Under the pieces are notes generated by a model. That model ran no database searches, had not been told where the DNA came from, and saw only the letters and a program-made list of their open reading frames with translations. Of a DNA stretch of 52,130 nucleotides, positions 16,627 to 33,789 are shown one piece after another (the stretch's first letter is position 1; every line of letters starts with the position of its first letter). Origin of the DNA: Candidatus Curtissbacteria bacterium (GTDB taxonomy: Bacteria; Patescibacteriota; Microgenomatia; Curtissbacterales; GWA2-41-24); the NCBI GenBank assembly GCA_016187105.1, contig JACPKK010000001.1, positions 1-52,130 of the forward strand, given 5' to 3'. A program made the position numbers and the translations under genes.

Positions 16627-18918
16627 TTATGGAGAGTAATCGGCCTTTAGCTTTTCAACGAAGGTTAAAGCTGTTTCCTCTTTTAAAATCGGAGACTTGG
16701 TCAATTTTTGCCTCATGAGAAAGTATTCATTCCTCGGATAATAATCTGTTATTGGCGGGCTTTTTATGAATTCTTTAAGGAGACTTTGGCGATCGCCAAT
16801 TATTTCAACGGTGATTGCATCTTTTAGATCCGTCCCAGGGGCAAGACTCATAATTTCTTTAAGGTCGGCGGCGACGATTTCATCGGATAACATCCCATCC
16901 AGTCTTTCTTTGGCAAAAGGGCCAGAAGAACCCTCTAAAAAAATGCCCCCGACGCTGCCGGTTTTTTGGATCGCCAAAACATAAGGGAAAACATCGAGGA
17001 AACTTTTAATGGCCATGGCGATTTCGTCTTTGCGGGAACCGTGATAGTAAATCCATTGGCTGACGATCCCGCCTGCGTTTAGGTGTTTGGATAAATCTTG
17101 ATAAAATTCTTTGGAGTGCAGAACCGAGGTACCGGCCGCGTTAAACGGCGGCGGCGGGTCTATAGTAACGATATCGTATTTATTACGGGTTAAGAAAGCG
17201 AAATTTCGGCCGTCGTTTACAATTATTTTCCCTTTGGGGTTATTTAATACCTCTTCGGCGTCCGGATGAAACAGGTACGTAAAGCCCGGAATAGACGGGA
17301 CAAGTTCAATGGCATCAGTTTCCAGATCATGTTTTAAGCTTGAGCGGAAAGTGGTGCCCATGCCAAAAGCAATTACCAGGACTTTCTTGGGATTTTCATG
17401 AAGCGTTATCGGGATATGGGCCATTAACCTTGTTTCGGAAACTCTGGAGGTAGTTGCAACTCCGTCAATAAACAAGCCGAGGTCATCATTTTTGTAATCG
17501 CGATAGCCAAAAACGGAAGCGACTTCGTCTTCTTGAAATTTATAGTCAAAACCGTTTATTTGCGCGGCCCCAATATTGAAATCGTTAGTCTTCCCGTAGA
17601 GACGGTGGTTTTTATAAACAACCAAATAAAAATTGGCACCTATTAAAAATAAGGCGGTTATGAGGGCGGCAGACTTTATAGAAACCAGGCTTCCTTTTTC
17701 ATAAAAAATGAAGGCCAGGGCGAGGGCGAAGTTTGCCAGGGACAAAACGGCAATTGATTGGGACGAGCCGAAAGTCGGGATTAAGAAAAAGCTGGCAATA
17801 AAGCCGCCGGCAATAGCGCCGATGGTATTGCCGAAATAACTCAAGCCGACTACTTTGCCCAGCGACTTTTCCTTGGCGAGCTGGGAGACGACAATGGGGA
17901 AAGTCAGACCCATGACGATAGTTGCCGGAAGAATCATGAAAGCAACGCGGTCGTAGGTATCGATGACAAACTTATGGGCAATTAAAACAGATAACAGGGC
18001 GAAAAAACCGATGGCAAGCTGGCAAAGGCCAAAGGCGAAACTCTGGGATTTTATGTAGCGGGAGATCTTTTCGTACAAAAGACTGCCCACGCCAATTCCG
18101 AAAATATAAATTGCCAAAACGGCGGCGAACGCATAAATAAAAGTGCCGAGAGTAGGCGTTAAGATTCTTGCCCAAAGGACTTCATAAGAGATGGCAACGA
18201 GACCGGATAAAGAAAAGGCAAGAATGACAAAAATGGTTTTTCTGGTTAGAACTTGCGAAAAATCAATTGCTAATTCTTTTTTAACTTTCGCCTTTTGATT
18301 TTTTGCCCCGACTAAATTTGCGGCAAAACCGATCATGACATTGGTGGCGACGGCGACAAGAAGAGTGTTTCGTAAGCCTAAAAATTCAATTAAAACAAAG
18401 GCGGCAATAATAACGCCGAAAACGCCGCCAAGCGTGTTTATTGCATAAAGCAAACTGACGCTTTTGGCAATTGACCTATTATGGTACTGGGCAAACTTAA
18501 TGAGGACCGGAAGGGTGGCGCCCATTAATACGGTCGGAATCAAAATAATTAGAATGGCAAGCGTGAATTTTATAAGAAGCAGGTTGAGGGTAACGGCAGA
18601 CCCGTCGGAGAAGTTAGCATAGAGATTCCTGACCGCCGGAAGAAGTATTAAGGTAGAAGCGGCAGTCAACCCGACAGCTAATTCTAAAAATGAATAAGTT
18701 TTAATGAGCTTTTTGGGAGAAAATTTGTCGGCAAATCTGCCGGCAATCAAGCTGCCAATCGCCAACCCACCCAAGAAAGCAGAGATAACAGCAACAAGCG
18801 AATTGGTAGTACTGCCAAAAATTAAAACTAGAAGCCTTGCCCAGATTATTTCATAAATCAGGCCGGCAGTACCGGAAAAGAAAAACAGGAGATAAATTAT
18901 TTTTGGCGGCAATTTCAT
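16627..18918 (-). CDS. Fused polytopic membrane domain plus spermidine-synthase-like methyltransferase-fold protein
   Basis: 763 aa. The N-terminal SGTAGLIYEIIWARLL motif starts about 12 TM segments. The C-terminal part has VLVIAFGMGTT and YDIVTIDPPPP, typical of the aminopropyltransferase fold. Confidence 0.65.
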   Translation of the reverse strand: MKLPPKIIYLLFFFSGTAGLIYEIIWARLLVLIFGSTTNSLVAVISAFLGGLAIGSLIAGRFADKFSPKKLIKTYSFLELAVGLTAASTLILLPAVRNLYANFSDGSAVTLNLLLIKFTLAILIILIPTVLMGATLPVLIKFAQYHNRSIAKSVSLLYAINTLGGVFGVIIAAFVLIEFLGLRNTLLVAVATNVMIGFAANLVGAKNQKAKVKKELAIDFSQVLTRKTIFVILAFSLSGLVAISYEVLWARILTPTLGTFIYAFAAVLAIYIFGIGVGSLLYEKISRYIKSQSFAFGLCQLAIGFFALLSVLIAHKFVIDTYDRVAFMILPATIVMGLTFPIVVSQLAKEKSLGKVVGLSYFGNTIGAIAGGFIASFFLIPTFGSSQSIAVLSLANFALALAFIFYEKGSLVSIKSAALITALFLIGANFYLVVYKNHRLYGKTNDFNIGAAQINGFDYKFQEDEVASVFGYRDYKNDDLGLFIDGVATTSRVSETRLMAHIPITLHENPKKVLVIAFGMGTTFRSSLKHDLETDAIELVPSIPGFTYLFHPDAEEVLNNPKGKIIVNDGRNFAFLTRNKYDIVTIDPPPPFNAAGTSVLHSKEFYQDLSKHLNAGGIVSQWIYYHGSRKDEIAMAIKSFLDVFPYVLAIQKTGSVGGIFLEGSSGPFAKERLDGMLSDEIVAADLKEIMSLAPGTDLKDAITVEIIGDRQSLLKEFIKSPPITDYYPRNEYFLMRQKLTKSPILKEETALTFVEKLKADYSP

Positions 18919-22491: not shown

Positions 22492-25362
22492 TCAGCTACA
22501 TTTGCTCCAGCCGCAGATGACGTTTACGCATTTTTTGCAGCCTTCGGCGTAGATTAGGGGACTGCCGCAATCGGGGCAAGATGTAAATTTGGCTTCCAGC
22601 ATTTTTTCTTCTTCGTGGATGGAGGTAATAATTAAGCCGCTTGGGTCTTGCTTGTCAACGACTGCGGGAACTTGTGTGGAAATTAAGCTGTTTAAAGTCA
22701 TCTGGGCGGTTTTACCGTTGCCTGTGTGACCATTAGTGTAGCCATTGCCCTGCCTGCCGGCAGACAGGCTATAGCCGTTGGTGTGGCCATTTGTCTCTAA
22801 ATTGACTGACGTTTGGCCATTATCGGGGGACACTGGCTCCTCGCTAATTGGCAGCTGCAGCTGTTTGGCCTTGGCGATTTCCAGGAGTGATTTACCAACA
22901 GCATCAAATGCGCTAAGGACGCTGTCCGGGCCGAGGCCATAAGGGGTTCCGCAAGAAATACCAACCAAGTCGGAAGCCACTTCTTCAAGCGTCGCGCCGT
23001 ATTTAAGGGCGCGGGAGATTAGCCTGCCGGTGACTTCGGCAGATGCGGAGATATAACCGCCGGGTTTGCCGATATTGATAAACACTTCCACCGGAACACC
23101 ATCAACATCCCGATAAACCGCCGTGTAGACCCAGCCGACGTCGGCCCTTTTTCTGACGCGCATACCCCACGCCTCGTGCGGAGTGCGGCGTTTTCCGGGA
23201 AGCTGTGGTCCGCCCGGCGGCGAGACAGACAGTCCGCTAGCTGATTCGTCCAGGCGTTTGGCGGCCAGCCCCGCACCTTGCGGGGCAAGCTGATCGTAGT
23301 ACGATTTGTCTTTTTTAACTTCCAGGACTTGTTTGACGCGGGAACCGTCGCGGTAAATGGTAATCATGTGGCCGCCTAACTCGTAAGTTAACCAGTAAGC
23401 CTCGCGGACGTCTTCAACCGTGGCTTCACTGGGGAAGTTAATGGTTTTCGAGATGCCGTTGTCGGTAAACTTTTGGAAGGCTGCTTCCATGCGCACGTGG
23501 TCGGCAGGGGCAATATCACCGGCCACGACAAAGACTTTTTTGAGCTCGGGGGGGCAAGCGGCAAGATTCTGGATCGACCCTTTGTTTTCCCCGATCTGGG
23601 CAAGAAGCTCTTCGGAATATAATTCCTGATCTTCAAGGGCCTTTGTGAAATAGGGATTGGTATTAAAAAGCCTTTTACCTTCAATGGTGTTTTTGGCAAA
23701 GGTAAGGGCAAAATGCGGCTCGATGCCGCTGGAACAATCGGCAAGAAGCGAGATCGTGCCGGTTGGGGCAATGGTGGTGCGGGCACCGTTTCTGGGGCGG
23801 ATGCCGACTTTCCCACCTTCGCCCTTTCGACTTAGCTCAAGGCTTCGGCGGGCAGGTTTGTCGTAAATTGAGCCTTTGAATGCCGGGAAGACGCCGCGGA
23901 TTTTGGCGAGGCCCTCGCTGGCACTATCCGCCTCTTCCTGCACAAACTTCATGACTTTTTCGGCTAAATCAAAGCCTTCCTTCGTGTTATAGCCGATTCC
24001 CAGCTTGACGAGCATGTCGGCCCAACCCATAACCCCAAGGCCGACGCGGCGGATTTTGGCAGTCATCTCGTCGATTTGGTAAACCGGATACTCGTTCATA
24101 TCCAGAACGTTATCCAGAAAATGAATGGCGCAATGGATTGTTTTTTTCATCGCCTGCCAATCGATTGCTTCTTCGACCCTTCGACTTTCAGCCGCGGGGT
24201 AAACAAACTTGGAAAGATTGATTGAACCTAAGGTGCAGGCGTCATACGGGTGCAGGGGCTGTTCGGCGCAAGGGTTGGTGGCCTCGATTGGCCCAAATTT
24301 AGGGACGGGATTGGCGCGGGATTTGTTGACCCGATCAATTAAGATCAGACCCGGATCGCCGTATTGCCAGGCGAGCTTGGTGATTAAATCAAAAACTCTT
24401 TTGGCATTAAGTTTGTCCATGGTCTTGCCGGTCCTGGGATTAATGAGGTCGTAACCTTCACCTTCTTCTTTGGCCCGGCAAAGTTCGTAAAGCCTGGCCA
24501 CCCCTTCGTCGACCCGGACGTTTTTGAGATCGAGGTCGCGAATAGCATAGGCTTCTTTGATTTCTGCGACAATCGGGTCAAAATCCACCTCTAGTTGAGC
24601 ATACTGGGCATCTTTGTGAACCTGCTCCATAAACCCTTCGGTAACGGTAACGGAAATATTAAAGTTTGTCAGCGAAAATTCATCGATTTTGTGGACGGCA
24701 AAACGCAGGACATCAGGATGGTTATAATGGAGAATTCCCATGTTGGCACCACGCCTGACACCGCCCTGGCGGATTTGACTGCAGACGTCGTTATAGGCCT
24801 GCATAAAGGCTACAGGGCCGGTAGATTTGCCTTTGGAAGTGCCGATCATATCATCTTTGGGGCGAAGGTGGGAGAAAGAAAAACCGGTACCGCCAGCCAT
24901 TTTGTGGATCATGGCCATGTCGGACATGGTTTTTAGGATAGAACGCATATCGTCTTCGACCGGCAGAACGAAGCAGGCCGAAAGCGATTGGCCGATTTTG
25001 CCGGAGTTGACGAGAGTGGGCGTATTAGGAATAAAGCTTTGGGTAGCCATGAGTTCATAAAACTCGCGGGCGGCTACCTGGTGAACTTTTTTTGCGCGAC
25101 TTGACTCGCGGCGAGGCAGGTAGATGGTATCGGCGGCGGCAATATAATAAGCAACGCGCCAGAAGAGATCCTTGGGAGTTTCTATGGGATTACCCTTATC
25201 ATCCCGGAAAGCATACCGCGTTTTGGCAATATAGGCGGCATTTTCGGAAAGAGCAGGCTCAAACAAATCCTTGGGGGCTTGGGGGATTTTGCGGCCGAGC
25301 TTGCGAGCCGCTTCCCGTTCATGCTGTCTTAAATCGACTTTAATTTGGTTCAACTTTTTCAT
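22492..25362 (-). CDS. nrdJ: Class II (adenosylcobalamin-dependent) ribonucleotide reductase with a C-terminal Cys4 zinc ribbon
   Basis: 956 aa. Motifs: NPCAEQPL, TIAPTGTISLLADCSSGIEP, GISKTINFP. The C-terminus reads CPDCG...CKKC. Low-complexity linker: NGHTNGYSLSAGRQGNGYTNGHTGNG. Confidence 0.9.
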   Translation of the reverse strand: MKKLNQIKVDLRQHEREAARKLGRKIPQAPKDLFEPALSENAAYIAKTRYAFRDDKGNPIETPKDLFWRVAYYIAAADTIYLPRRESSRAKKVHQVAAREFYELMATQSFIPNTPTLVNSGKIGQSLSACFVLPVEDDMRSILKTMSDMAMIHKMAGGTGFSFSHLRPKDDMIGTSKGKSTGPVAFMQAYNDVCSQIRQGGVRRGANMGILHYNHPDVLRFAVHKIDEFSLTNFNISVTVTEGFMEQVHKDAQYAQLEVDFDPIVAEIKEAYAIRDLDLKNVRVDEGVARLYELCRAKEEGEGYDLINPRTGKTMDKLNAKRVFDLITKLAWQYGDPGLILIDRVNKSRANPVPKFGPIEATNPCAEQPLHPYDACTLGSINLSKFVYPAAESRRVEEAIDWQAMKKTIHCAIHFLDNVLDMNEYPVYQIDEMTAKIRRVGLGVMGWADMLVKLGIGYNTKEGFDLAEKVMKFVQEEADSASEGLAKIRGVFPAFKGSIYDKPARRSLELSRKGEGGKVGIRPRNGARTTIAPTGTISLLADCSSGIEPHFALTFAKNTIEGKRLFNTNPYFTKALEDQELYSEELLAQIGENKGSIQNLAACPPELKKVFVVAGDIAPADHVRMEAAFQKFTDNGISKTINFPSEATVEDVREAYWLTYELGGHMITIYRDGSRVKQVLEVKKDKSYYDQLAPQGAGLAAKRLDESASGLSVSPPGGPQLPGKRRTPHEAWGMRVRKRADVGWVYTAVYRDVDGVPVEVFINIGKPGGYISASAEVTGRLISRALKYGATLEEVASDLVGISCGTPYGLGPDSVLSAFDAVGKSLLEIAKAKQLQLPISEEPVSPDNGQTSVNLETNGHTNGYSLSAGRQGNGYTNGHTGNGKTAQMTLNSLISTQVPAVVDKQDPSGLIITSIHEEEKMLEAKFTSCPDCGSPLIYAEGCKKCVNVICGWSKCS
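22748..22768. repeat. 21-bp palindrome CCCTGCCTGCCGGCAGACAGG inside nrdJ (encodes SLSAGRQG)
   Basis: One of four copies; see 25371, 41724 and 50184. Confidence 0.8.
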
Positions 25363-25840
25363 GCTTTAGGCCCTGTCTGCCGGCAGGCAGGCTCTTTGAT
25401 AATTTTGCCAGTTCTTTTTCAAAATCCGAAAGGTCGGCAAATTGTCTATAAACAGACGCGAACCTGATGTAGGCAACTTCGTCCAGCTTTTTCAGTTTAC
25501 GGATTACGAGTTCGCCGATCCTTTTTGACAAAACTTCGTCTTTGCCGTCTTTTCTTAAATCCCCTTCTACCTCATCGATAATCTTTTCAATATCGTCGGC
25601 CGAAACCGGCCGCTTCTCGCACGATTTGATAATACCGCTTCGCAATTTGCTTCTATCAAAAATTTCCCTCTTGCCGTCCTTTTTAATAACTAAAAGATCA
25701 AGCGTTTCAACCCTCTCGAAGGTTGTAAACCGGCGGCTACATTTTTGGCACTGGCGCCTGCGCCTAGTTGTTTTACCGTCGGTGCCTTCTCTTTTATCGA
25801 TAACCGCAGTCTTATCGAAGCTACAAAACGGACAAATCAC
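25340..25840 (-). CDS. nrdR: Transcriptional repressor NrdR
   Basis: MICPFCSFDKTAVIDKRE...CQKCSRRFTTFE is the zinc ribbon, followed by an ATP-cone. It has a GTG start with the SD AAGAGGAAG. It overlaps the nrdJ start by 23 nt. Confidence 0.9.
   Translation of the reverse strand: MICPFCSFDKTAVIDKREGTDGKTTRRRRQCQKCSRRFTTFERVETLDLLVIKKDGKREIFDRSKLRSGIIKSCEKRPVSADDIEKIIDEVEGDLRKDGKDEVLSKRIGELVIRKLKKLDEVAYIRFASVYRQFADLSDFEKELAKLSKSLPAGRQGLKHEKVEPN
25371..25391. repeat. 21-bp palindrome CCCTGTCTGCCGGCAGGCAGG in the nrdR 3' tail (encodes SLPAGRQG)
   Basis: Read directly from the sequence. Confidence 0.8.
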
Positions 25841-29263: not shown

Positions 29264-29337
29264 TGGCTGCGGAGCAGGGATTCGAACCCCAATACCATCC
29301 TCCAGAGGGATGTGTCCTACCGTTAGACGACTCCGCA
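29264..29337 (-). tRNA. tRNA-Gln (anticodon CUG), CCA encoded
   Basis: Minus strand folds as TGCGGAG TC GTCT AACGGTA GGAC A CATCC CTCTGGA GGATG GTAT TGGGG TTCGAAT CCCTG CTCCGCA G CCA. It has the U1:A72 pair typical of bacterial tRNA-Gln. Confidence 0.9.
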
Positions 29338-29393: not shown

Positions 29394-30521
29394 TTAGATA
29401 TTTTTAATTTTTTCCCAAGGGAACTGGTCCCTTCCGAAATGACCGTAGGCGGCAGTTTCCAGGTAAATCGGTCTTCTTAAATCCAACTCTTCGATTATGC
29501 CCCTGACAGAAGTATCGATTAATTTTTCAATAAAGCTTATAAGCACTTTTTGGGAAACACGGGCAGTGCCGAATGTTTCTACTTCCTGCATCAGAGGCTT
29601 TTTGGCGCCAATAAAATAGGCCAGACTAACTTCGGCTCGGGAGGCAAGTTTATGGGCGACAATGTTTTTGGCAATAAACCTTGCGGCGTACGCGCCGGAT
29701 CTATCTACTTTGGTCGGATCTTTACCGCTGAAACATCCGCCGCCAACCCGGGCGTAACCGCCGTATGTGTCAACGACGATCTTCCTGCCGGTCAGCCCGG
29801 AATCAGAAGCCGGACCGCCAATATGCCAAACCCCAGTCCCGTTAACAATGACCTTGTCTTTAGGAACTTCCAGCCCATAAGTTTCCAAGACTTTGCTGAC
29901 AACATATTTATATAAATCGGCTTTGACTTGCGTGAGCCTTACTTTTTGATCGTGAGGAACAGCAATGACGACTGTCGAAACGCCAACAGGCTTACCGTTT
30001 TTATACTCAACCGTTACCAGTGATTTGCCATCCGGCCTAAGATAGGGAATTGATTTACTTTTTCTCGCATCGTCGATTGCTTTGGTAATTTCGTGAGCGA
30101 GCGTTATCGGTAAAGGCATTAATGACTTAGTTTCGGTGCAAGCAAAACCGAACATGATTCCCTGATCACCGGCTCCGTCATTGTCAACGCCAGCGGCAAT
30201 TTGGGGTGATTGTCCAGATACATAAATTTCTATTGGTGACTGGTAAGTAAAATTAAAGCGCTTTTTAGTGTAGCCTAGGCTTTTAATTTGATTCCTGGAG
30301 ATATCTTCAAGGCTGATGCGGGCGCTGGTTGTCAGTTCGCCGACAATAATGAGTCTGTTTTTAGCAGCCATCGTCTCTATGGCCACACGGCCCTGCTGAT
30401 CTTGGGCCAACACTTCATCCAATATAGCGTCGCTTATCTGGTCACAAATTTTATCCGGATGACCGGCACAAACAGATTCGGAAGTAAAACTTGAGGATAA
30501 TTTTTGTCTTTTTGCGACCAT
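29394..30521 (-). CDS. metK: S-adenosylmethionine synthetase
   Basis: 375 aa. Motifs: GHPDKICDQISDA, GAGDQGIMFGFA, GGGCFSGKDPTKVDRSGAY. Confidence 0.95.
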   Translation of the reverse strand: MVAKRQKLSSSFTSESVCAGHPDKICDQISDAILDEVLAQDQQGRVAIETMAAKNRLIIVGELTTSARISLEDISRNQIKSLGYTKKRFNFTYQSPIEIYVSGQSPQIAAGVDNDGAGDQGIMFGFACTETKSLMPLPITLAHEITKAIDDARKSKSIPYLRPDGKSLVTVEYKNGKPVGVSTVVIAVPHDQKVRLTQVKADLYKYVVSKVLETYGLEVPKDKVIVNGTGVWHIGGPASDSGLTGRKIVVDTYGGYARVGGGCFSGKDPTKVDRSGAYAARFIAKNIVAHKLASRAEVSLAYFIGAKKPLMQEVETFGTARVSQKVLISFIEKLIDTSVRGIIEELDLRRPIYLETAAYGHFGRDQFPWEKIKNI

Positions 30522-30602
30522 ATCTACCTTTTAGGTACAGGCACCGTGGCTAAATTAGGCTCGGTTGCCGGTCCGCCGATGACGGACTCTCTTGATACAA
30601 CA
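30522..30602 (-). ncRNA. Candidate SAM-I-clan riboswitch (SAM-I / SAM-IV / SAM-I/IV-like) in the metK leader
   Basis: The minus strand reads UUGUAUCAAGAGAGUCCGUCAUCGGCGGACCGGCAACCGAGCCUAAUUUAGCCACGGUGCCUGUACCUAAAAGGUAGAU-AUG. Core strings AUCAAGAG, GGCAACC and GGUGCC occur in the SAM-I order. A possible P1 (GUAUC/GAUAU) overlaps the start codon. Confidence 0.45.
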
Positions 30603-30607
30603 AAAAG

Positions 30608-30655: not shown

Positions 30656-31831
30656 TTAAAGCTTGAGCCCTAGAATTTGAGAACATTTGGAGATTAGCTC
30701 GCCGGAGCGGGGCTTTTTCGATTTTACCATTTTGGAAAGTGCCTCAATGGCCGCGGGAGTATTTAAATCATCGTCCATGGCTTTGAAAAAATCGGGGGCA
30801 AGTTTTTTCAGTTCGTTAATTTGCAAATTACCTCCCGCAGATTCCGACTCGAAAGTTTGGGCTAAGAGTTTGGCTCTTTCCAGCTCCTGCTCCTGATAAT
30901 CCCAAGGAGTGCGATAGTGATGCGAAAGGAGAAAAATCCTAATGGCATTTGGGGAATATTTTTTGAGAAGATCGCTAATAAATATCATGTTGCCCAATGA
31001 TTTACTCATTTTCTTGCCCTTACAATAAACCATGGCAGTATGCATCCAAACTTTTACAAATTTTTTGCCGGTTGCGTTTTCGCTTTGGGCAATTTCCGCT
31101 TCATGGTGGGGAAAAATTAAATCTTCTCCCCCGCCATGGATTGTTATGGTCGGGCCCAGATATTTCATGGACATAGCCGAACATTCAATATGCCAACCCG
31201 GTCTACCTTGGCCCCAAGGCGAATCCCAAGCCGGTTCAGCGGGTTTTTCTTTCTGCCAGAGGACAAAATCCAAAGGATCTTTTTTATTGGGGTCAAGGGG
31301 GAAATTACCGCGTTCATTGGCAATTTGCAGCATGGCGTTGTAATCGTATTTAGAAAGTTTGCCAAAGTTTTTATCGCTTGCTACTCTAAAATATACCGAA
31401 CCATTTTTCTCGTAAGATAGACCCTTTTTCAAAAGCACTCCAATGATTCGAATCATTGGAGTAATGTTTTTGGTAGCTTTGGGGAGGTAATCGGGACGAA
31501 GAAAATTGAGAGCGTCCAGATTGCGCAGATGGTTTTGTGTTTCGAGACGACCTAATTTTTGCCAATTAACTTTGAGCGATTTAGCTTTTATTAAAATATC
31601 GTCATCAATATCGGTAACGTTTTGGACATAGGTAACTTTGGCACCTAAAAACCTTAAATATCTCGTTAAAACATCGTAAGTTATAAACGTAAAAGCATGC
31701 CCGAGATGAGTTGTATCGTACGGCGTGATTCCGCAGACATAAATGCCCACGGGTTTTGCAAGGTCAATAATATCTTTCTTGCCACTTAAGGTATTTGTAA
31801 TTTTCACCGGTGATTTATTTTTTAAGGACAA
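30656..31831 (-). CDS. CysRS/MshC-family cysteine ligase (class I catalytic core, no C-terminal anticodon-binding domain)
   Basis: 391 aa. Motifs: YVCGITPYDTTHLGHA (HIGH), YVQNVTDIDDD, GRPGWHIECSAMS, FPHHEAEIAQ, KMSKSLGN, DDDLNTP, after which the protein ends. Confidence 0.75.
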   Translation of the reverse strand: MSLKNKSPVKITNTLSGKKDIIDLAKPVGIYVCGITPYDTTHLGHAFTFITYDVLTRYLRFLGAKVTYVQNVTDIDDDILIKAKSLKVNWQKLGRLETQNHLRNLDALNFLRPDYLPKATKNITPMIRIIGVLLKKGLSYEKNGSVYFRVASDKNFGKLSKYDYNAMLQIANERGNFPLDPNKKDPLDFVLWQKEKPAEPAWDSPWGQGRPGWHIECSAMSMKYLGPTITIHGGGEDLIFPHHEAEIAQSENATGKKFVKVWMHTAMVYCKGKKMSKSLGNMIFISDLLKKYSPNAIRIFLLSHHYRTPWDYQEQELERAKLLAQTFESESAGGNLQINELKKLAPDFFKAMDDDLNTPAAIEALSKMVKSKKPRSGELISKCSQILGLKL

Positions 31832-32492
31832 GGAAATATTCTTCTTTGGGAAATTTTTGACGCATTGCGAGGATTCTTTTGGCGTCTTGAATTTGCGATT
31901 TGTGGGCCATCATCGCCTTGATTTTCGTTTCCCAAACGTCGGTAACTTTGACAATTTTAGCAATTTCGCTTCTTTTGTAGCCCGGCGGAAAATAGATGAA
32001 ATAATTATCGCTTATTGTGTTTCTCATTTTGTCGGTGATGCAGTGATAAAGAATTGTTTTAACAAACGGCAACTTTTGGCAGACGAAGCTTGTGGCCATA
32101 GAGACAGTAATATGGTCGATATGGCCGGAAACGCCCCTTGGCTCAAAGGTGATGACGGTTTGCGGTTTTAAGCGCTTGAGGTGAACTTCGATTTTTGCGG
32201 CAAGCTCGTGATAAAGAGAATTTGAGAGCGTACCGTCGACAAAGGCTAGAAAATAGACTTTTTTAACGCCCAATATTTTGGCAGACGGCCTTAATTCCCT
32301 TTCCCTGGTTTTGCCTAAATTTTTGTGATTGCCGGAATTTTTCCCAGCTTCTCCCTTAGTGGCACAGAGGAGATAAACGTCGTGAGTCTTGGTAAATTTA
32401 TGGATGGTTCCAGAAGGACCAAAGGCTTCATCGTCGGGATGGGCGAGGACGGCAACGACTGTTTTTCTACTTTTTCTTTTTTGCAAGCTCAC
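31815..32492 (-). CDS. PIG-L/LmbE-family N-acetylglucosaminyl deacetylase (MshB/BshB-like)
   Basis: 225 aa. Motifs: VVAVLAHPDDEAFG and GHIDHITV (HxDH). It overlaps both neighbouring genes. Confidence 0.8.
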   Translation of the reverse strand: MSLQKRKSRKTVVAVLAHPDDEAFGPSGTIHKFTKTHDVYLLCATKGEAGKNSGNHKNLGKTRERELRPSAKILGVKKVYFLAFVDGTLSNSLYHELAAKIEVHLKRLKPQTVITFEPRGVSGHIDHITVSMATSFVCQKLPFVKTILYHCITDKMRNTISDNYFIYFPPGYKRSEIAKIVKVTDVWETKIKAMMAHKSQIQDAKRILAMRQKFPKEEYFLVLKK

Positions 32493-33789
32493 TTACCCTT
32501 TCTAATGTTTCCTCTTTTCCGATAATGCTCACTGACTCTGGTAACGGCGGAGTAACAAGATTTCCAAATGTAGCAACACCTAAACTCCTGTATAGATCTT
32601 TTGTTTCTACGCTATGCACTCTTGCGAATTCTGCTGTTCCTGCCCGTATCATGTCAGGATTCCAATCAATCTTTTCTAAGTCTTTTGCATATTGACTAAT
32701 AGTCGCTCCAGAGAGGGGGGCGGCTTTGATTACAGGATTGGTCAAGGGTGGCTTTTTATAGAATGAATCAGCCAATTTGGGAAAATCAGCTATTGATCCT
32801 ATTCGTCCTTGTACCAGCGGTATCACGCTCAACGTTACTTTCGAAGCATATGCATGAGGGAATTTGTCATTCAGTTTTTTATAAAAATCGTTTGGCGATA
32901 GTTTTTTCAACCACTGTTGATTGAACCATTGCAGTTTTTCCAAGTTAAAAATCGGGCTGTTTTTGTTGAGGCGGTCGAGCGAGAATTCACTGACCAGCTC
33001 ATCCAGAGTAAACAGCTCCCTGTCGCCTTTCGGGGCCCAGCCCAAAAGCGCTAAAAAGTTAACGATCGCTTCCGGCAGATATCCTTCTTCGACGTACTCG
33101 ATGACGGATTTTGCGCCGCCTCTCTTGGAAAGTTTTGTGTGGCCTGACCCGAGAATCGGCGGGAGGTGGACGAAATGGGGATGCTTCCATCCAAACGCTT
33201 CGTAAAGAAGAAGGTGTTTCGGTGTTGAAGAAATCCATTCATCACCGCGCATGACGTGGGAAATTTCTAAATCGTGGTCATCGACGACAGAAGCAAAATG
33301 ATAAGTGGGGAAACCGTCGGATTTTACGATTACAAAATCTTCGATAACGTCTGAAGAAAACTTAACCGGCCCATGAACAACATCATTCCAAGTAAGATTT
33401 TTACCTTTTTCGACTTTGAAGCGCCAGGCGCCTTGATCTTCGTAAGCAAGTTTCTTAACTTTGAGAATCTCGAGGTGCTTATTGTAGATGTCGAGCCGTT
33501 TTGATTGGTGTTCTTCTTCATCCCATTTTAGATTAAGCAGAATAAGGCTTTCTTTTATTTTGTCTACGGATTCGGGAACGAGACGGGCACGATCGGTATC
33601 CTCGATACGCAGCAAAAACTCTCCGCCTTGGTTTTTAGCAAAAAGGTAGTTAAAAAGGGCGGTACGAATATTGCCAATATGGGGAATTCCGGTTGGCGAA
33701 GGGGCGTATCGAACACGAATCCCTCGACCCTTCGACGAACTCAGGGTCTCGATGACTCGACTTCGCTCGGAACCAATGGCTTTAGACAT
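32467..33789 (-). CDS. gltX: Glutamyl-tRNA synthetase with a repeat-derived N-terminal extension
   Basis: IRVRYAPSPTGIPHIGNIRTALFNYLFAK..GGEFLLRIEDTDRAR and KLSKRGG. The first ~20 codons (MSKAIGSERSRVIETLSSSKGRG) are built from repeat modules. Confidence 0.9.
   Translation of the reverse strand: MSKAIGSERSRVIETLSSSKGRGIRVRYAPSPTGIPHIGNIRTALFNYLFAKNQGGEFLLRIEDTDRARLVPESVDKIKESLILLNLKWDEEEHQSKRLDIYNKHLEILKVKKLAYEDQGAWRFKVEKGKNLTWNDVVHGPVKFSSDVIEDFVIVKSDGFPTYHFASVVDDHDLEISHVMRGDEWISSTPKHLLLYEAFGWKHPHFVHLPPILGSGHTKLSKRGGAKSVIEYVEEGYLPEAIVNFLALLGWAPKGDRELFTLDELVSEFSLDRLNKNSPIFNLEKLQWFNQQWLKKLSPNDFYKKLNDKFPHAYASKVTLSVIPLVQGRIGSIADFPKLADSFYKKPPLTNPVIKAAPLSGATISQYAKDLEKIDWNPDMIRAGTAEFARVHSVETKDLYRSLGVATFGNLVTPPLPESVSIIGKEETLERVSELAKKKK
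33740..33770. repeat. Repeat modules in the gltX 5' end (CTCAGGGTCTCGATGACTCGACTT plus CTCGACTTCGCTCGG)
   Basis: It shares 23/24 nt with 20356..20379 and a 14-mer with 11281..11294. Confidence 0.75.

What the first reader, a model, noticed from the sequence alone, without database searches (positions are those of the whole stretch)
30656..32492. MshC-like cysteine ligase without an anticodon-binding domain, overlapped with a PIG-L/LmbE deacetylase: thiol-cofactor module or minimal CysRS?
ORF 30656..31831 (391 aa) has the complete class-I CysRS catalytic core: THLGHA, GRPGWHIECSAM, FPHHEAEIAQ and KMSKS. It ends right after the DDLNTP helix. That is about 70 aa shorter than bacterial CysRS (about 460 aa in E. 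coli, from memory) and close to mycothiol ligase MshC (about 410 aa). Its YVCGITPYD.THLGHA and YVQNVTD.DD strings match what I remember of MshC rather than CysRS (CGPTVYD; N.TD.DDKI). Its start overlaps by 17 nt the end of a PIG-L/LmbE deacetylase (AHPDDE, HxDH), the family of MshB and BshB. That gene in turn overlaps gltX by 26 nt. Deacetylation of a GlcNAc conjugate followed by ATP-dependent cysteine ligation are consecutive steps of mycothiol synthesis. Such a pair in a CPR-like genome would point to an undescribed low-molecular-weight thiol. The alternative is also interesting: this could be the cell's only CysRS, stripped of anticodon recognition. The gltX-X-cysS layout would then echo the B. 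subtilis gltX-cysE-cysS operon.
Basis: partly seen in the sequence, partly recalled or inferred. Interest (0 to 1): 0.65.

Follow-up and report, generated by a model that had tools for sequence, protein, structure and literature searches.

The report
Cysteine ligase paired with sugar deacetylase
A gene annotated as the cysteine tRNA-charging enzyme in a tiny-genome (CPR) bacterium belongs to a separate branch shared with the mycothiol ligase MshC and is always next to, or in relatives fused to, a sugar deacetylase, so it most likely builds a cysteine–amino-sugar compound such as an unknown protective thiol.

Summary
On the minus strand, gltX (32467-33789), a PIG-L/LmbE deacetylase (31815-32492) and a 383-391-aa CysRS-like gene (30656-31831) are packed together. 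[quoted passage not shown] The "17-nt overlap" comes from taking the longest ORF; the real start is probably GTG 31807.

The protein passes NCBI's cysS cutoff and fails the MshC cutoff. In trees, however, all ABD-less forms plus MshC form one clade (200/200 bootstraps), apart from 76 full-length CysRSs. The clade shares a remodelled CP1 hairpin, the element that reads the tRNA acceptor stem in CysRS, and replaces CysRS-invariant K73, Y152, K185 and N237.

In the CPR group the ligase and a PIG-L gene stay adjacent in three orientations with different flanking genes. Two divergent proteins (634 and 648 aa) fuse the two enzymes, with the PIG-L domain where CysRS carries its ABD.

Best reading (about 0.6): a deacetylase followed by an ATP-dependent cysteine ligase, making a Cys-GlcN-type conjugate.

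Unresolved: I could not scan a whole genome for a second, canonical cysS, so a sole or dual-function CysRS is not excluded.

The parts
30656..31807 (-). ABD-less CysRS/MshC-like cysteine ligase. 383 aa from GTG 31807, or 391 aa if the longest-ORF TTG 31831 is used.
   Evidence: ORF. Start inferred from homologs P0001 and P0003. Pfam tRNA-synt_1e 374 bits. NCBIfam cysS 403.7 (cutoff 340) against MshC 362.2 (cutoff 485.1). Member of the short clade that includes MshC, 200/200. AF2 model pLDDT 93.2.
31253..31324 (-). Remodelled CP1 hairpin and LWQ: IANERGNFPLDPNKKDPLDFVLWQ (residues 170-193 of the 391-aa ORF). This is the clade signature shared with MshC.
   Evidence: Alignment blocks and coordinates. 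In canonical CysRS this site is LQAGA--RVEV..K.DP.DF.LWK. The corresponding MSGA motif recognises the 1:72 base pair of tRNA-Cys (PMC5389517).
30998..31012 (-). KMSKS loop. With HLGH at 31697-31708, these are the class I adenylation motifs.
   Evidence: Invariant across 33 short-clade proteins.
31085..31114 (-). FPHHEAEIAQ, carrying zinc ligands H242 and E246. With C33 and C217 this gives the full four-ligand CysRS-type zinc site for cysteine selection.
   Evidence: MshC has HHEYS at this position, with only three protein ligands (PMC9736012).
30659..30676 (-). C-terminal ILGLKL. The protein ends at the close of the helical bundle, and the roughly 67-aa alpha/beta anticodon-binding domain is absent.
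   Evidence: Alignment. ABD HMM negative for the window. The E. coli anticodon contacts R427, W432, D436 and R439 lie in the missing part (PMC13449415).
31815..32492 (-). PIG-L/LmbE-family metal-dependent deacetylase (223-225 aa; start TTG 32486 or GTG 32492). HPDD at 32427-32444 and HIDH at 32112-32123.
   Evidence: Pfam PF02585 106 bits. Best NCBIfam match BshB2, 86 bits, below its cutoff of 195. Closest solved structure is diacetylchitobiose deacetylase, 57 bits. The HXDD+H motif and ligand spacing fit the family definition (PMC4101496).
32467..33789 (-). gltX (glutamate--tRNA ligase), first gene of the co-directional unit. It overlaps the PIG-L start by 20-26 nt.
   Evidence: NCBIfam gltX_bact 418.9 bits against a cutoff of 290. 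The same gltX>PIG-L>ligase order is found in L081-84, L089, L090, L091 and L093.
30490..30603 (-). SAM-I/IV riboswitch in front of metK. It marks the 3' boundary of the [14 protein letters not shown] unit and is not part of the module.
   Evidence: Rfam RF01725, 54.2 bits against a gathering score of 41.1.

Best explanation
The 383-aa protein is not a conventional cysteinyl-tRNA synthetase. It belongs to a large, uncharacterised, ABD-less branch of the CysRS superfamily whose only studied member is the mycothiol ligase MshC. It keeps everything needed to select cysteine on zinc and to make Cys-AMP. In Curtissbacteria-type CPR bacteria it works as a pair with the adjacent LmbE/PIG-L enzyme. Proposed mechanism: the PIG-L enzyme removes the N-acetyl group from a GlcNAc-containing compound (GlcNAc-X, with X unknown), exposing the 2-amino group. 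The ligase then transfers cysteine from Cys-AMP onto that amine, giving Cys-GlcN-X. This is the same chemistry as MshB then MshC in mycothiol synthesis, and formally the same steps as BshB then BshC in bacillithiol synthesis. Shown here: the domain content, the catalytic motifs, the clade membership, the class-specific substitutions, the conserved adjacency and the gene fusion. Inferred: the non-tRNA acceptor, the order of the two steps, the amino-sugar nature of the acceptor, and that the product serves as a low-molecular-weight thiol.
For: (1) Phylogeny. All short forms plus M. smegmatis MshC form one clade in 100/100 and 200/200 NJ bootstraps on 331 catalytic-core columns, separate from 76 full-length CysRSs from bacteria and archaea. 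(2) Class-specific changes lie where CysRS handles tRNA. The ABD that reads all three anticodon bases is absent. The CP1 hairpin that reads the 1:72 pair is replaced by an insert shared with MshC. K73, Y152, G166, R168, K185 and N237, which are 95-100% conserved in the 76 full-length enzymes, are replaced in every short form. Among 150 library representatives, LWQ never occurs with an ABD (0 cases), against 97 cases of LWK with an ABD. (3) A short form lies in tandem with a full-length CysRS in an Acidimicrobiales genome (L009), so in at least one lineage the clade is a paralog and not the housekeeping enzyme. That paralog also passes the cysS cutoff (343.4 against 340), so the window protein passing it proves little. 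(4) Gene linkage. PIG-L is immediately adjacent in every CPR-group locus examined: co-directional after gltX (window, L081-84, L089, L090, L091, L093), divergent (L088, L095) and convergent (L094), each with different flanking genes. A further 26 contig-length matches between the two homolog lists add support. Across 1.6 Mb of loci, PIG-L occurs nowhere near any full-length cysS. (5) Rosetta-stone fusion. P0250 (634 aa) and P0395 (648 aa), 56% identical over their full length, join a short-clade ligase to a PIG-L domain (Pfam PF01406 + PF02585). P0395 is a single ORF on contig L096. Their PIG-L domain is 44-49% identical to the stand-alone PIG-L of L088 and L094. (6) All characterised LmbE enzymes act on N-acetyl- or N-acyl-glucosamine cores (PMC4101496). 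(7) Both genes are under strong constraint: mean identity across five syntenic genomes is 61% for PIG-L and 63% for the ligase, against 59% for GluRS and 47% for AspRS.
Against: The protein passes the curated cysS cutoff (403.7 against 340) and fails the MshC cutoff (362.2 against 485.1). It keeps 102 of 116 CysRS-consensus residues, as many as a divergent genuine CysRS (L009b, 100) and more than MshC (81 of 114), including the fourth zinc ligand that MshC has lost. In the core group it is co-transcribed with gltX inside a translation-rich cluster (AspRS, CCA-adding enzyme, RecJ), a position that full-length cysS occupies in eight unrelated lineages. No second CysRS, SepRS, GT4 or GNAT gene lies in the 52-kb window, and none of the roughly 20-kb relatives' loci shows a second CysRS. 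CPR genomes are small and poor in biosynthesis. An engineered ABD-less CysRS can still charge tRNA. The predicted fold matches CysRS and MshC equally well. Short forms outside the CPR group, and the Levybacteria one, have no PIG-L neighbour. The trees are neighbour-joining only, and only one experimentally characterised MshC was included.
Confidence: 0.6

Rival explanations
1. Minimal housekeeping CysRS. The protein is the cell's only cysteinyl-tRNA synthetase and recognises tRNA-Cys through U73 and the acceptor end without reading the anticodon. The PIG-L neighbour serves something else, for example an Mca/Bca-like amidase that frees cysteine from host mycothiol or bacillithiol conjugates to feed tRNA charging.
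For: Passes the cysS equivalog cutoff. Keeps 88% of CysRS-consensus sites and the four-ligand zinc site. Lies downstream of gltX, as canonical cysS does in eight unrelated lineages. No other cysS in the window or in the relatives' flanks. Public annotation calls it cysteine--tRNA ligase. An engineered deltaABD CysRS is active (PMC5389517). The LmbE family includes Cys-GlcN amidases, and the best NCBIfam match of the window's PIG-L is BshB2.
Against: It does not group with any full-length CysRS (200/200 for the short+MshC clade). The CP1 acceptor-stem reader and six invariant CysRS residues are replaced. A short-clade member coexists with a canonical CysRS in L009. Fusing a tRNA synthetase to a GlcNAc deacetylase exactly where the ABD should be is hard to explain. 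The gltX position is absent from the deepest CPR branches. No T-box or other tRNA-Cys-responsive leader was found. Loss of G34 recognition alone costs more than 1000-fold in E. coli.
Confidence: 0.15
2. Dual-function enzyme. The same ABD-less protein charges tRNA-Cys for translation and also ligates cysteine to the amino sugar produced by PIG-L, so one gene covers two jobs in a reduced genome.
For: This reading reconciles the CysRS-like conservation and the lack of a visible second cysS with the PIG-L linkage and the fusion. Both reactions share the Cys-AMP intermediate (PMC9736012).
Against: No precedent is known to me. The remodelled CP1 hairpin and the lost invariant residues argue against efficient tRNA binding. 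It requires more assumptions than either single-function model.
Confidence: 0.15
3. CysRS*-like specialised synthetase. An ABD-less CysRS dedicated to an unusual tRNA, such as a selC*-type tRNA-Cys(UCA), used for recoding.
For: Same architecture (no ABD, altered CP1) as CysRS* of Desulfobacterales (PMC5389517).
Against: No selB*, selC* or any unusual tRNA lies near the gene in the window or in 16 related loci. Only tRNA-Gln, Glu, Ile and Arg were found. CysRS* changes four CP1 residues without an insertion, whereas this clade has a longer, MshC-like insert. This model does not explain the PIG-L linkage or the fusion.
Confidence: 0.04
4. Chance neighbourhood. PIG-L and the ligase are unrelated genes that stayed together only through inherited synteny.
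For: Most adjacent cases (arrangement 1) share ancestry and so count as a single event.
Against: The pair persists through two further rearrangements with new flanking genes and with a PIG-L only 35% identical to the window's. It also occurs as a fusion in two divergent proteins. PIG-L is absent from about 1.3 Mb around the other cysS genes.
Confidence: 0.02

Closest known systems
MshC (L-cysteine:GlcN-Ins ligase, mycothiol synthesis; PDB 3C8Z, 8HFM) acting after MshB
   Same: ABD-less CysRS-derived architecture. Same clade (200/200). Shares the ITPYD loop, YVQNVTD, and a CP1 insert of the ERGxxPxxPxK type. HIGH and KMSKS are present, and cysteine is selected on zinc. A deacetylase of the LmbE family precedes it in the pathway.
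   Different: Scores 362 against the MshC cutoff of 485. Keeps the fourth zinc ligand (Glu) and H224, Q241 and W254, which MshC has changed. Branches outside the actinobacterial MshC subgroup. Occurs in CPR bacteria. Its deacetylase is not an MshB ortholog (55 bits against a cutoff of 224), and is adjacent or fused, whereas the M. tuberculosis msh genes are dispersed (from memory). The acceptor is unknown, and there is no evidence for inositol.
BshB then BshC steps of bacillithiol synthesis
   Same: The logic is the same: an LmbE deacetylase makes GlcN-X and cysteine is then added. The best curated matches of the PIG-L partners are BshB2 (window type, 86 bits) and BshB1 (L088/L094 type, 99-103 bits).
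   Different: All PIG-L scores are far below the BshB cutoffs (182-195). BshC is not related to CysRS (from memory). No BshA-like GT4 gene was seen nearby.
Canonical bacterial CysRS (E. coli, PDB 1LI5/1U0B; TIGR00435)
   Same: Catalytic core at 40-41% identity, the four zinc ligands, HIGH and KMSKS, and the helical bundle up to the LGL motif. Passes the TIGR00435 cutoff. Foldseek TM-score 0.90.
   Different: Lacks the C-terminal alpha/beta anticodon-binding domain. CP1 hairpin remodelled. K73, Y152, K185 and N237 replaced. Separate clade.
CysRS* of Desulfobacterales (Mukai et al. 2016, PMC5389517)
   Same: A natural ABD-less CysRS paralog with altered CP1.
   Different: CysRS* is linked to selB* and selC* and changes four CP1 residues (PTVS in place of MSGA). 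The clade here has an MshC-like insertion and is linked to PIG-L, not to tRNA or elongation-factor genes.
GluQRS/YadB (truncated GluRS paralog)
   Same: A precedent for a class I synthetase that lost its anticodon-binding domain and gained a new acceptor.
   Different: Different family, and its acceptor is still a tRNA nucleoside (queuosine in tRNA-Asp).

Membership tests
Canonical cysteinyl-tRNA synthetase (CysRS, TIGR00435) | Class I catalytic core with HIGH and KMSKS | tested here: met
   HLGH at 31697-31708 and KMSKS at 30998-31012. Pfam tRNA-synt_1e 374 bits.
Canonical cysteinyl-tRNA synthetase (CysRS, TIGR00435) | Zinc site Cys28/Cys209/His234/Glu238 (E. coli numbering) | tested here: met
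   C33, C217, H242 and E246 are present and invariant or nearly so across 33 relatives.
Canonical cysteinyl-tRNA synthetase (CysRS, TIGR00435) | C-terminal alpha/beta anticodon-binding domain (CysS_C; R427, W432, D436, R439) | tested here: not met
   Profile match ends at 375 of 466. ABD HMM negative in the window and in the relatives' loci. The protein ends at ILGLKL.
Canonical cysteinyl-tRNA synthetase (CysRS, TIGR00435) | CP1 hairpin (QAGA/MSGA type) and invariant K73, Y152, K185, N237 | tested here: not met
   Replaced by IANERGNFPLDP, D78, F156, Q193 and A245 in the window and in all short forms.
Canonical cysteinyl-tRNA synthetase (CysRS, TIGR00435) | Curated HMM score at or above the cutoff | tested here: met
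   403.7 against 340. The L009a paralog, which lies next to a full-length CysRS, also passes at 343.4, so this criterion does not discriminate here.
Canonical cysteinyl-tRNA synthetase (CysRS, TIGR00435) | Groups with full-length CysRS in phylogeny | tested here: not met
   Short forms plus MshC form a clade in 200/200, with no full-length sequence inside it.
Canonical cysteinyl-tRNA synthetase (CysRS, TIGR00435) | Charges tRNA-Cys; only CysRS in the genome | not testable with these tools
   No whole CPR genome could be scanned and no tRNA-Cys gene lies in the held loci. This needs biochemistry.
MshC (mycothiol cysteine ligase, TIGR03447) | ABD-less CysRS-like architecture with the ITPYD loop and CP1 insert | tested here: met
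MshC (mycothiol cysteine ligase, TIGR03447) | Curated HMM score at or above the cutoff | tested here: not met
   362.2 against 485.1. All non-actinobacterial short forms score 353-395.
MshC (mycothiol cysteine ligase, TIGR03447) | Three-ligand zinc site (HHEYS) and other MshC-specific substitutions | tested here: not met
   The window has HHEAE, with the Glu retained. It keeps 102 of 116 CysRS-consensus sites, against 81 of 114 for MshC.
MshC (mycothiol cysteine ligase, TIGR03447) | Genome also encodes MshA, MshB, MshD and inositol-phosphate synthesis; acceptor is GlcN-Ins | not testable with these tools
   Only 52 kb were seen, with no GT4 or GNAT gene. The PIG-L is not an MshB equivalog (54.7 against 224).
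LmbE/PIG-L metallo-deacetylase superfamily (PF02585) | PIG-L domain with the HXDD + H metal motif, 97-148 residues between ligands 2 and 3 | tested here: met
   Pfam 106 bits against 28.2. H18-P-D-D21, then H124/H127, giving a spacing of 103-106 residues. Family definition from PMC4101496.
BshB1/BshB2/MshB/Mca equivalogs | Curated HMM cutoffs | tested here: not met
   Window PIG-L: 86, 62, 55 and 45 bits against cutoffs of 195, 182, 224 and 277. L088/L094 type: BshB1 99-103 bits.
CysRS* (selC*-dedicated ABD-less CysRS) | Linked to selB*/selC*; CP1 PTVS substitution | tested here: not met
   No such genes or tRNAs in the window or related loci. The CP1 here is an insertion of a different type.

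The most novel reading that the evidence does not exclude
The ABD-less enzyme is the only CysRS-family protein in these roughly 1-Mb genomes and does both jobs. It charges tRNA-Cys without reading the anticodon, and with its PIG-L partner it also builds a Cys-GlcN-type thiol. That would make it a living intermediate between a tRNA synthetase and a cofactor ligase. A broader, compatible reading is that CPR bacteria and many Chloroflexota make an undescribed low-molecular-weight thiol by a hybrid route combining a BshB-like deacetylase and an MshC-like ligase.
Probability: 0.15. Interest if true: 0.9.

Novelty: new variant of a known kind. Interest (0 to 1): 0.68.

Why it matters
Which protective thiol, if any, CPR/Patescibacteria and most Chloroflexota use is unknown. 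I found no paper on the subject. A conserved and sometimes fused deacetylase-cysteine ligase pair gives a concrete, clonable two-enzyme system for answering that question. It also exposes a systematic annotation problem. Hundreds of ABD-less proteins in CPR, Chloroflexota and Acidobacteriota are named 'cysteine--tRNA ligase' by one pipeline and 'MshC' by another, and they may count as the cysS marker in genome-completeness and phylogenomic sets. For aaRS evolution, the clade shows that MshC is not an isolated actinobacterial oddity. It is the derived tip of a broad family that kept an almost intact CysRS active site while losing the parts that touch tRNA. If there is no second cysS, this would be the first natural housekeeping CysRS without anticodon recognition.

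Tried and rejected
(1) Split gene or frameshift: rejected. The 134 nt downstream are a SAM riboswitch for metK, and the ABD HMM finds nothing in the window or in the relatives' flanks.

(2) Searching for a second cysS in whole genomes: not achievable. The metagenome scan with PIG-L found only three loci. Context look-ups are limited to 10 kb on each side. Cluster look-ups gave no organism names and no contig-length matches for canonical CysRS representatives.

(3) Co-variation of the tRNA-Cys acceptor end with CP1: no tRNA-Cys gene lies in any held locus.

(4) T-box or other Cys-responsive leader as a marker of a housekeeping cysS: none found.

(5) Structure as a discriminator: the AF2 model is excellent, but Foldseek scores CysRS (TM 0.90) and MshC (TM 0.91) alike.

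(6) Thiol-pathway neighbours (GT4, GNAT, disulfide reductase): none in the window. A generic GNAT lies 1.5 kb upstream in L094 only, and I did not treat it as evidence.

(7) Neighbourhoods of the non-CPR short forms (L001, L003, L004, L085-87, L097) and of Levybacteria L002: unrelated to each other and uninformative.

(8) Literature on ABD-less CysRS or mycothiol genes in CPR: nothing found. Two structure papers (PMC2628295, PMC126036) are not held, so the roles of K185, Y152 and N237 in CysRS remain unassigned.

(9) gltX-X-cysS as positional orthology with cysS: weakened, because the deepest CPR branches and the fusions lack gltX.
Full report
THE OBSERVATION.
On the minus strand the window carries gltX (32467-33789, 440 aa), a PIG-L/LmbE ORF (31815-32492, 225 aa) and a CysRS-like ORF (30656-31831, 391 aa). 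Pfam and NCBIfam confirm the families: tRNA-synt_1e 374 bits, PIG-L 106 bits, gltX_bact 419 bits.

The CysRS-like protein really lacks its C-terminus. The cysS profile match stops at position 375 of 466, and the protein ends at ILGLKL, aligned to about residue 392-394 of E. coli CysRS. An HMM built from the last 95 residues of 60 full-length CysRSs recovers every full-length enzyme but nothing in the window. The 134 nt before metK are a SAM-I/IV riboswitch. The missing piece is the alpha/beta domain that holds the E. coli anticodon contacts R427, W432, D436 and R439 (PMC13449415).

One correction: homologs start at MKITN, which corresponds to GTG 31807, 7 nt after the PIG-L stop codon. The 17-nt overlap is therefore a longest-ORF artefact. 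Relatives have 1-4-nt overlaps at this junction and 23-26-nt overlaps at the gltX/PIG-L junction.

WHERE IT COMES FROM.
The closest proteins (52-99% identity, 366-416 aa) come from Candidatus Curtissbacteria and other Patescibacteria. They are named 'cysteine--tRNA ligase' by NCBI and, in several cases, 'MshC' by JGI. The rest of the window is typical CPR housekeeping: H+-PPase, Lon, Lgt, RNR/NrdR, AspRS, RecJ, CCA-adding enzyme, SecDF and ComM. It holds no second CysRS-family gene, SepRS, GT4 or GNAT.

CysRS OR MshC?
The curated models give a split answer. The window's protein scores 403.7 on cysS (cutoff 340) and 362.2 on MshC (cutoff 485.1). I scored a calibration set, in bits on cysS / MshC:
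- Curtissbacteria relatives: 400-413 / 353-356
- Short forms from Dehalococcoidia, Acidobacteriota and Chloroflexia: 378-401 / 366-395
- Full-length CysRSs: 430-663 / 273-323
- L009a, an Acidimicrobiales short form: 343 / 407

L009a lies immediately upstream of a full-length, ABD-bearing CysRS in the same locus. It is a paralog there, yet it still passes the cysS cutoff. Passing that cutoff is therefore not proof of CysRS function.

PHYLOGENY.
I ran neighbour-joining with bootstrap on 331 catalytic-core columns.
- With 104 sequences, the clade {all short forms + M. smegmatis MshC} is recovered in 100/100 and 200/200 replicates, with no full-length CysRS inside it.
- With 122 sequences the result is the same, 200/200.
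- The CPR group that contains the window is monophyletic in 188-192 of 200 replicates.
- Levybacteria does not join the CPR group (15/200).
- The nearest neighbours of the CPR group are Chloroflexota short forms.

ABD loss therefore looks like a single event on the stem of a clade whose one characterised member does not use tRNA.

RESIDUE-LEVEL SIGNATURE.
Of the 116 alignment sites that are at least 85% conserved in 76 full-length CysRSs, the window keeps 102. A divergent genuine CysRS (L009b) keeps 100, L009a keeps 90, and MshC keeps 81 of 114. The cysteine-activation machinery is thus intact, including the fourth zinc ligand (HHEAE, where MshC has HHEYS).

Six positions that are 95-100% conserved in full-length enzymes are replaced in every short form:
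- K73 to D
- Y152 to F
- G166 to I or L
- R168 to N
- K185 to Q
- N237 to A or C

G166 and R168 lie in the CP1 hairpin (E. coli QAGAR, D. tiedjei MSGA), which recognises the first base pair of tRNA-Cys (PMC5389517). In all short forms this hairpin is replaced by a longer insert, IANERGNxPxDPxK, which resembles MshC's FAERGGDPDRPGK.

In an exhaustive search of 1.84 billion representatives (19,543 hits at E up to 0.001; top 150 examined), LWQ never co-occurs with an ABD (0 cases), against 97 cases of LWK with an ABD.

The predicted structure is confident (pLDDT 93.2), but it matches CysRS (1u0b, TM 0.90) and MshC (8hfn, TM 0.91; 3c8z, rmsd 2.2 A) equally well.

THE PIG-L PARTNER.
It has the family's HXDD + H metal motif with the correct spacing. 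Its closest solved relatives are archaeal diacetylchitobiose deacetylases (57 bits), ahead of MshB (30) and BshB1 (28). Its best curated match is BshB2, at 86 bits against a cutoff of 195. All characterised LmbE enzymes hydrolyse N-acetyl- or N-acyl-glucosamine compounds (PMC4101496).

LINKAGE.
In the CPR group the two genes are always neighbours, in three arrangements with different surroundings:
1. gltX>PIG-L>ligase, co-directional and overlapping: window, L081/82, L083/84, L089, L093. L090 and L091, which were retrieved independently with the PIG-L protein as query, show the same order.
2. Divergent, with a 42-nt gap, between FBP aldolase and an MIP channel: L088 and L095.
3. Convergent, with a 4-nt overlap of the 3' ends, among YbeY, S21, HIT and PHP genes: L094.

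In arrangements 2 and 3 the PIG-L is only about 35% identical to the window's PIG-L, though the two are 53% identical to each other. The ligases are 58-61% identical to the window's. Twenty-six identical 'longest contig' values link the two homolog lists, and 15 of these contigs are shorter than 10 kb.

A PIG-L HMM run over all 98 loci (1.6 Mb) hits only these sites, the fusion described below, and one distant PIG-L in L092. It hits nothing near any of the 76 full-length cysS genes. In contrast, gltX directly precedes full-length cysS in eight unrelated lineages. Since the deepest CPR branches lack gltX next to the pair, the gltX position in the core group is probably secondary.

THE FUSION.
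P0250 (634 aa) is a short-clade ligase with every signature, running straight from its EVLGL end into a PIG-L domain. Pfam places PF01406 at residues 14-305 and PF02585 at 402-535. P0395 (648 aa) is 56% identical to it over the full length and is a single ORF on an 8,984-bp contig (L096).

The two fusions pair in 200/200 replicates and sit beside the CPR and Chloroflexota short forms, not with actinobacterial MshC. Their PIG-L domain is 44-49% identical to the stand-alone PIG-L of L088 and L094. The deacetylase occupies the place where CysRS carries its anticodon-binding domain.

Adjacency that survives rearrangement, together with an evolutionarily maintained fusion, is the standard genomic signature of two enzymes acting in one pathway.

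INTERPRETATION.
The best-supported model is a two-step module. PIG-L deacetylates a GlcNAc-containing compound. The ligase then makes Cys-AMP on its zinc site and transfers cysteine to the freed amine, giving Cys-GlcN-X. This is the MshB-then-MshC logic, with BshB-like deacetylases (confidence about 0.6). The acceptor, the product and its role as a thiol are inferred.

The main rivals are that the protein is the cell's only CysRS (0.15) or that it serves both roles (0.15). Supporting them: the strong CysRS-like conservation, the translation-gene context, the lack of a visible second cysS, and the fact that an engineered ABD-less CysRS still works. Against them: the phylogeny, the altered tRNA-contacting elements, the L009 tandem and the fusion.

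I could not test the decisive point, a second canonical cysS in a closed genome.

COMPARISON AND NOVELTY.
The protein is not a member of TIGR03447 MshC: it fails the cutoff, has different zinc-site and other residues, and falls outside the actinobacterial subgroup. It is not a canonical CysRS either: it has no ABD, its CP1 and invariant residues are changed, and it belongs to a separate clade. It is not CysRS*, because it has no selB*/selC* linkage and a different CP1 change.

It works most like MshC. I found no publication describing this clade, its PIG-L linkage or the fusion. I rate it a new variant of a known kind: a mycothiol/bacillithiol-style deacetylase-ligase pair in CPR bacteria, and probably in Chloroflexota, where 398-aa short forms are very abundant.

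LIMITS.
- The trees are distance-based.
- Only one experimentally characterised MshC was included.
- The roles of K185, Y152 and N237 in CysRS could not be taken from the literature, because the relevant papers are not held.
- The taxonomy of several contigs is unknown.
- Statements about the dispersed msh genes in M. tuberculosis and about BshC being unrelated to CysRS rest on my own knowledge.

Noticed in passing
window 30490-30603 (-): SAM-I/IV riboswitch (Rfam RF01725, 54.2 bits) directly upstream of metK (29394-30521). It fills the gap after the ligase gene.
   Followed up: partly
L009 9827-11125 and 11062-12609 (Acidimicrobiales chromosome OZ224042.1): An ABD-less short form (MshC HMM 407, cysS HMM 343) lies in tandem with, and slightly overlaps, a full-length CysRS that has a low-complexity SGD/TAG-rich insert before its anticodon-binding domain.
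   Followed up: partly
P0308 (711 aa): A canonical ABD-bearing CysRS with an N-terminal extension of about 220 aa that contains a hexapeptide-repeat (Hexapep) domain. This may be a CysE-like acetyltransferase fused to CysS, recalling the B. subtilis gltX-cysE-cysS operon.
   Followed up: no
window 29264-29337 (-); L083/L084 12373-12444; L091 7060-7131: A tRNA-Gln(CTG) gene recurs a short distance downstream of the [14 protein letters not shown] unit in several Curtissbacteria loci. This could relate to a non-discriminating GluRS.
   Followed up: no
L001 11639-12100 (-) and L085 2711-3982 (+): DUF3179 genes lie near the short-form ligase in two non-CPR loci of the same subclade. This may be lineage synteny or a weak association.
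   Followed up: no
window 16627-18918 (-): A 763-aa protein combining an MFS-transporter-like N-terminal region with a spermidine/spermine synthase domain, an unusual fusion.
   Followed up: no
window 22492-25362 (-) and 25340-25840 (-): A ribonucleotide reductase large subunit carrying a C-terminal TSCPD domain is preceded by NrdR, and the two ORFs overlap.
   Followed up: no
L094 5687-6223 (+): A generic GNAT acetyltransferase lies 1.5 kb upstream of the convergent ligase/PIG-L pair. Its MshD match is only 21 bits, so it is not evidence for an MshD-like step.
   Followed up: partly
L088 1108-2061 and 5458-6855; L095 3377-4855: Pyridine-nucleotide disulfide oxidoreductase genes, together with SufS/NifU and ferredoxin genes, lie 3-8 kb upstream of the divergent PIG-L/ligase pair. 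These are candidate disulfide reductases for a thiol system, but the distance is too great to count as linkage.
   Followed up: no
one search hit list (P0396-P0513): More than 100 clusters of nearly uniform 398-aa short forms come from Thermomicrobiales and Chloroflexia. NCBI names them cysteine--tRNA ligase and JGI names them MshC. One (L097) lies near a trehalose-phosphatase-family gene.
   Followed up: partly
L088 14999-15071 (+): tRNA-Ile with anticodon TAT (UAU) in a CPR-like contig.
   Followed up: no
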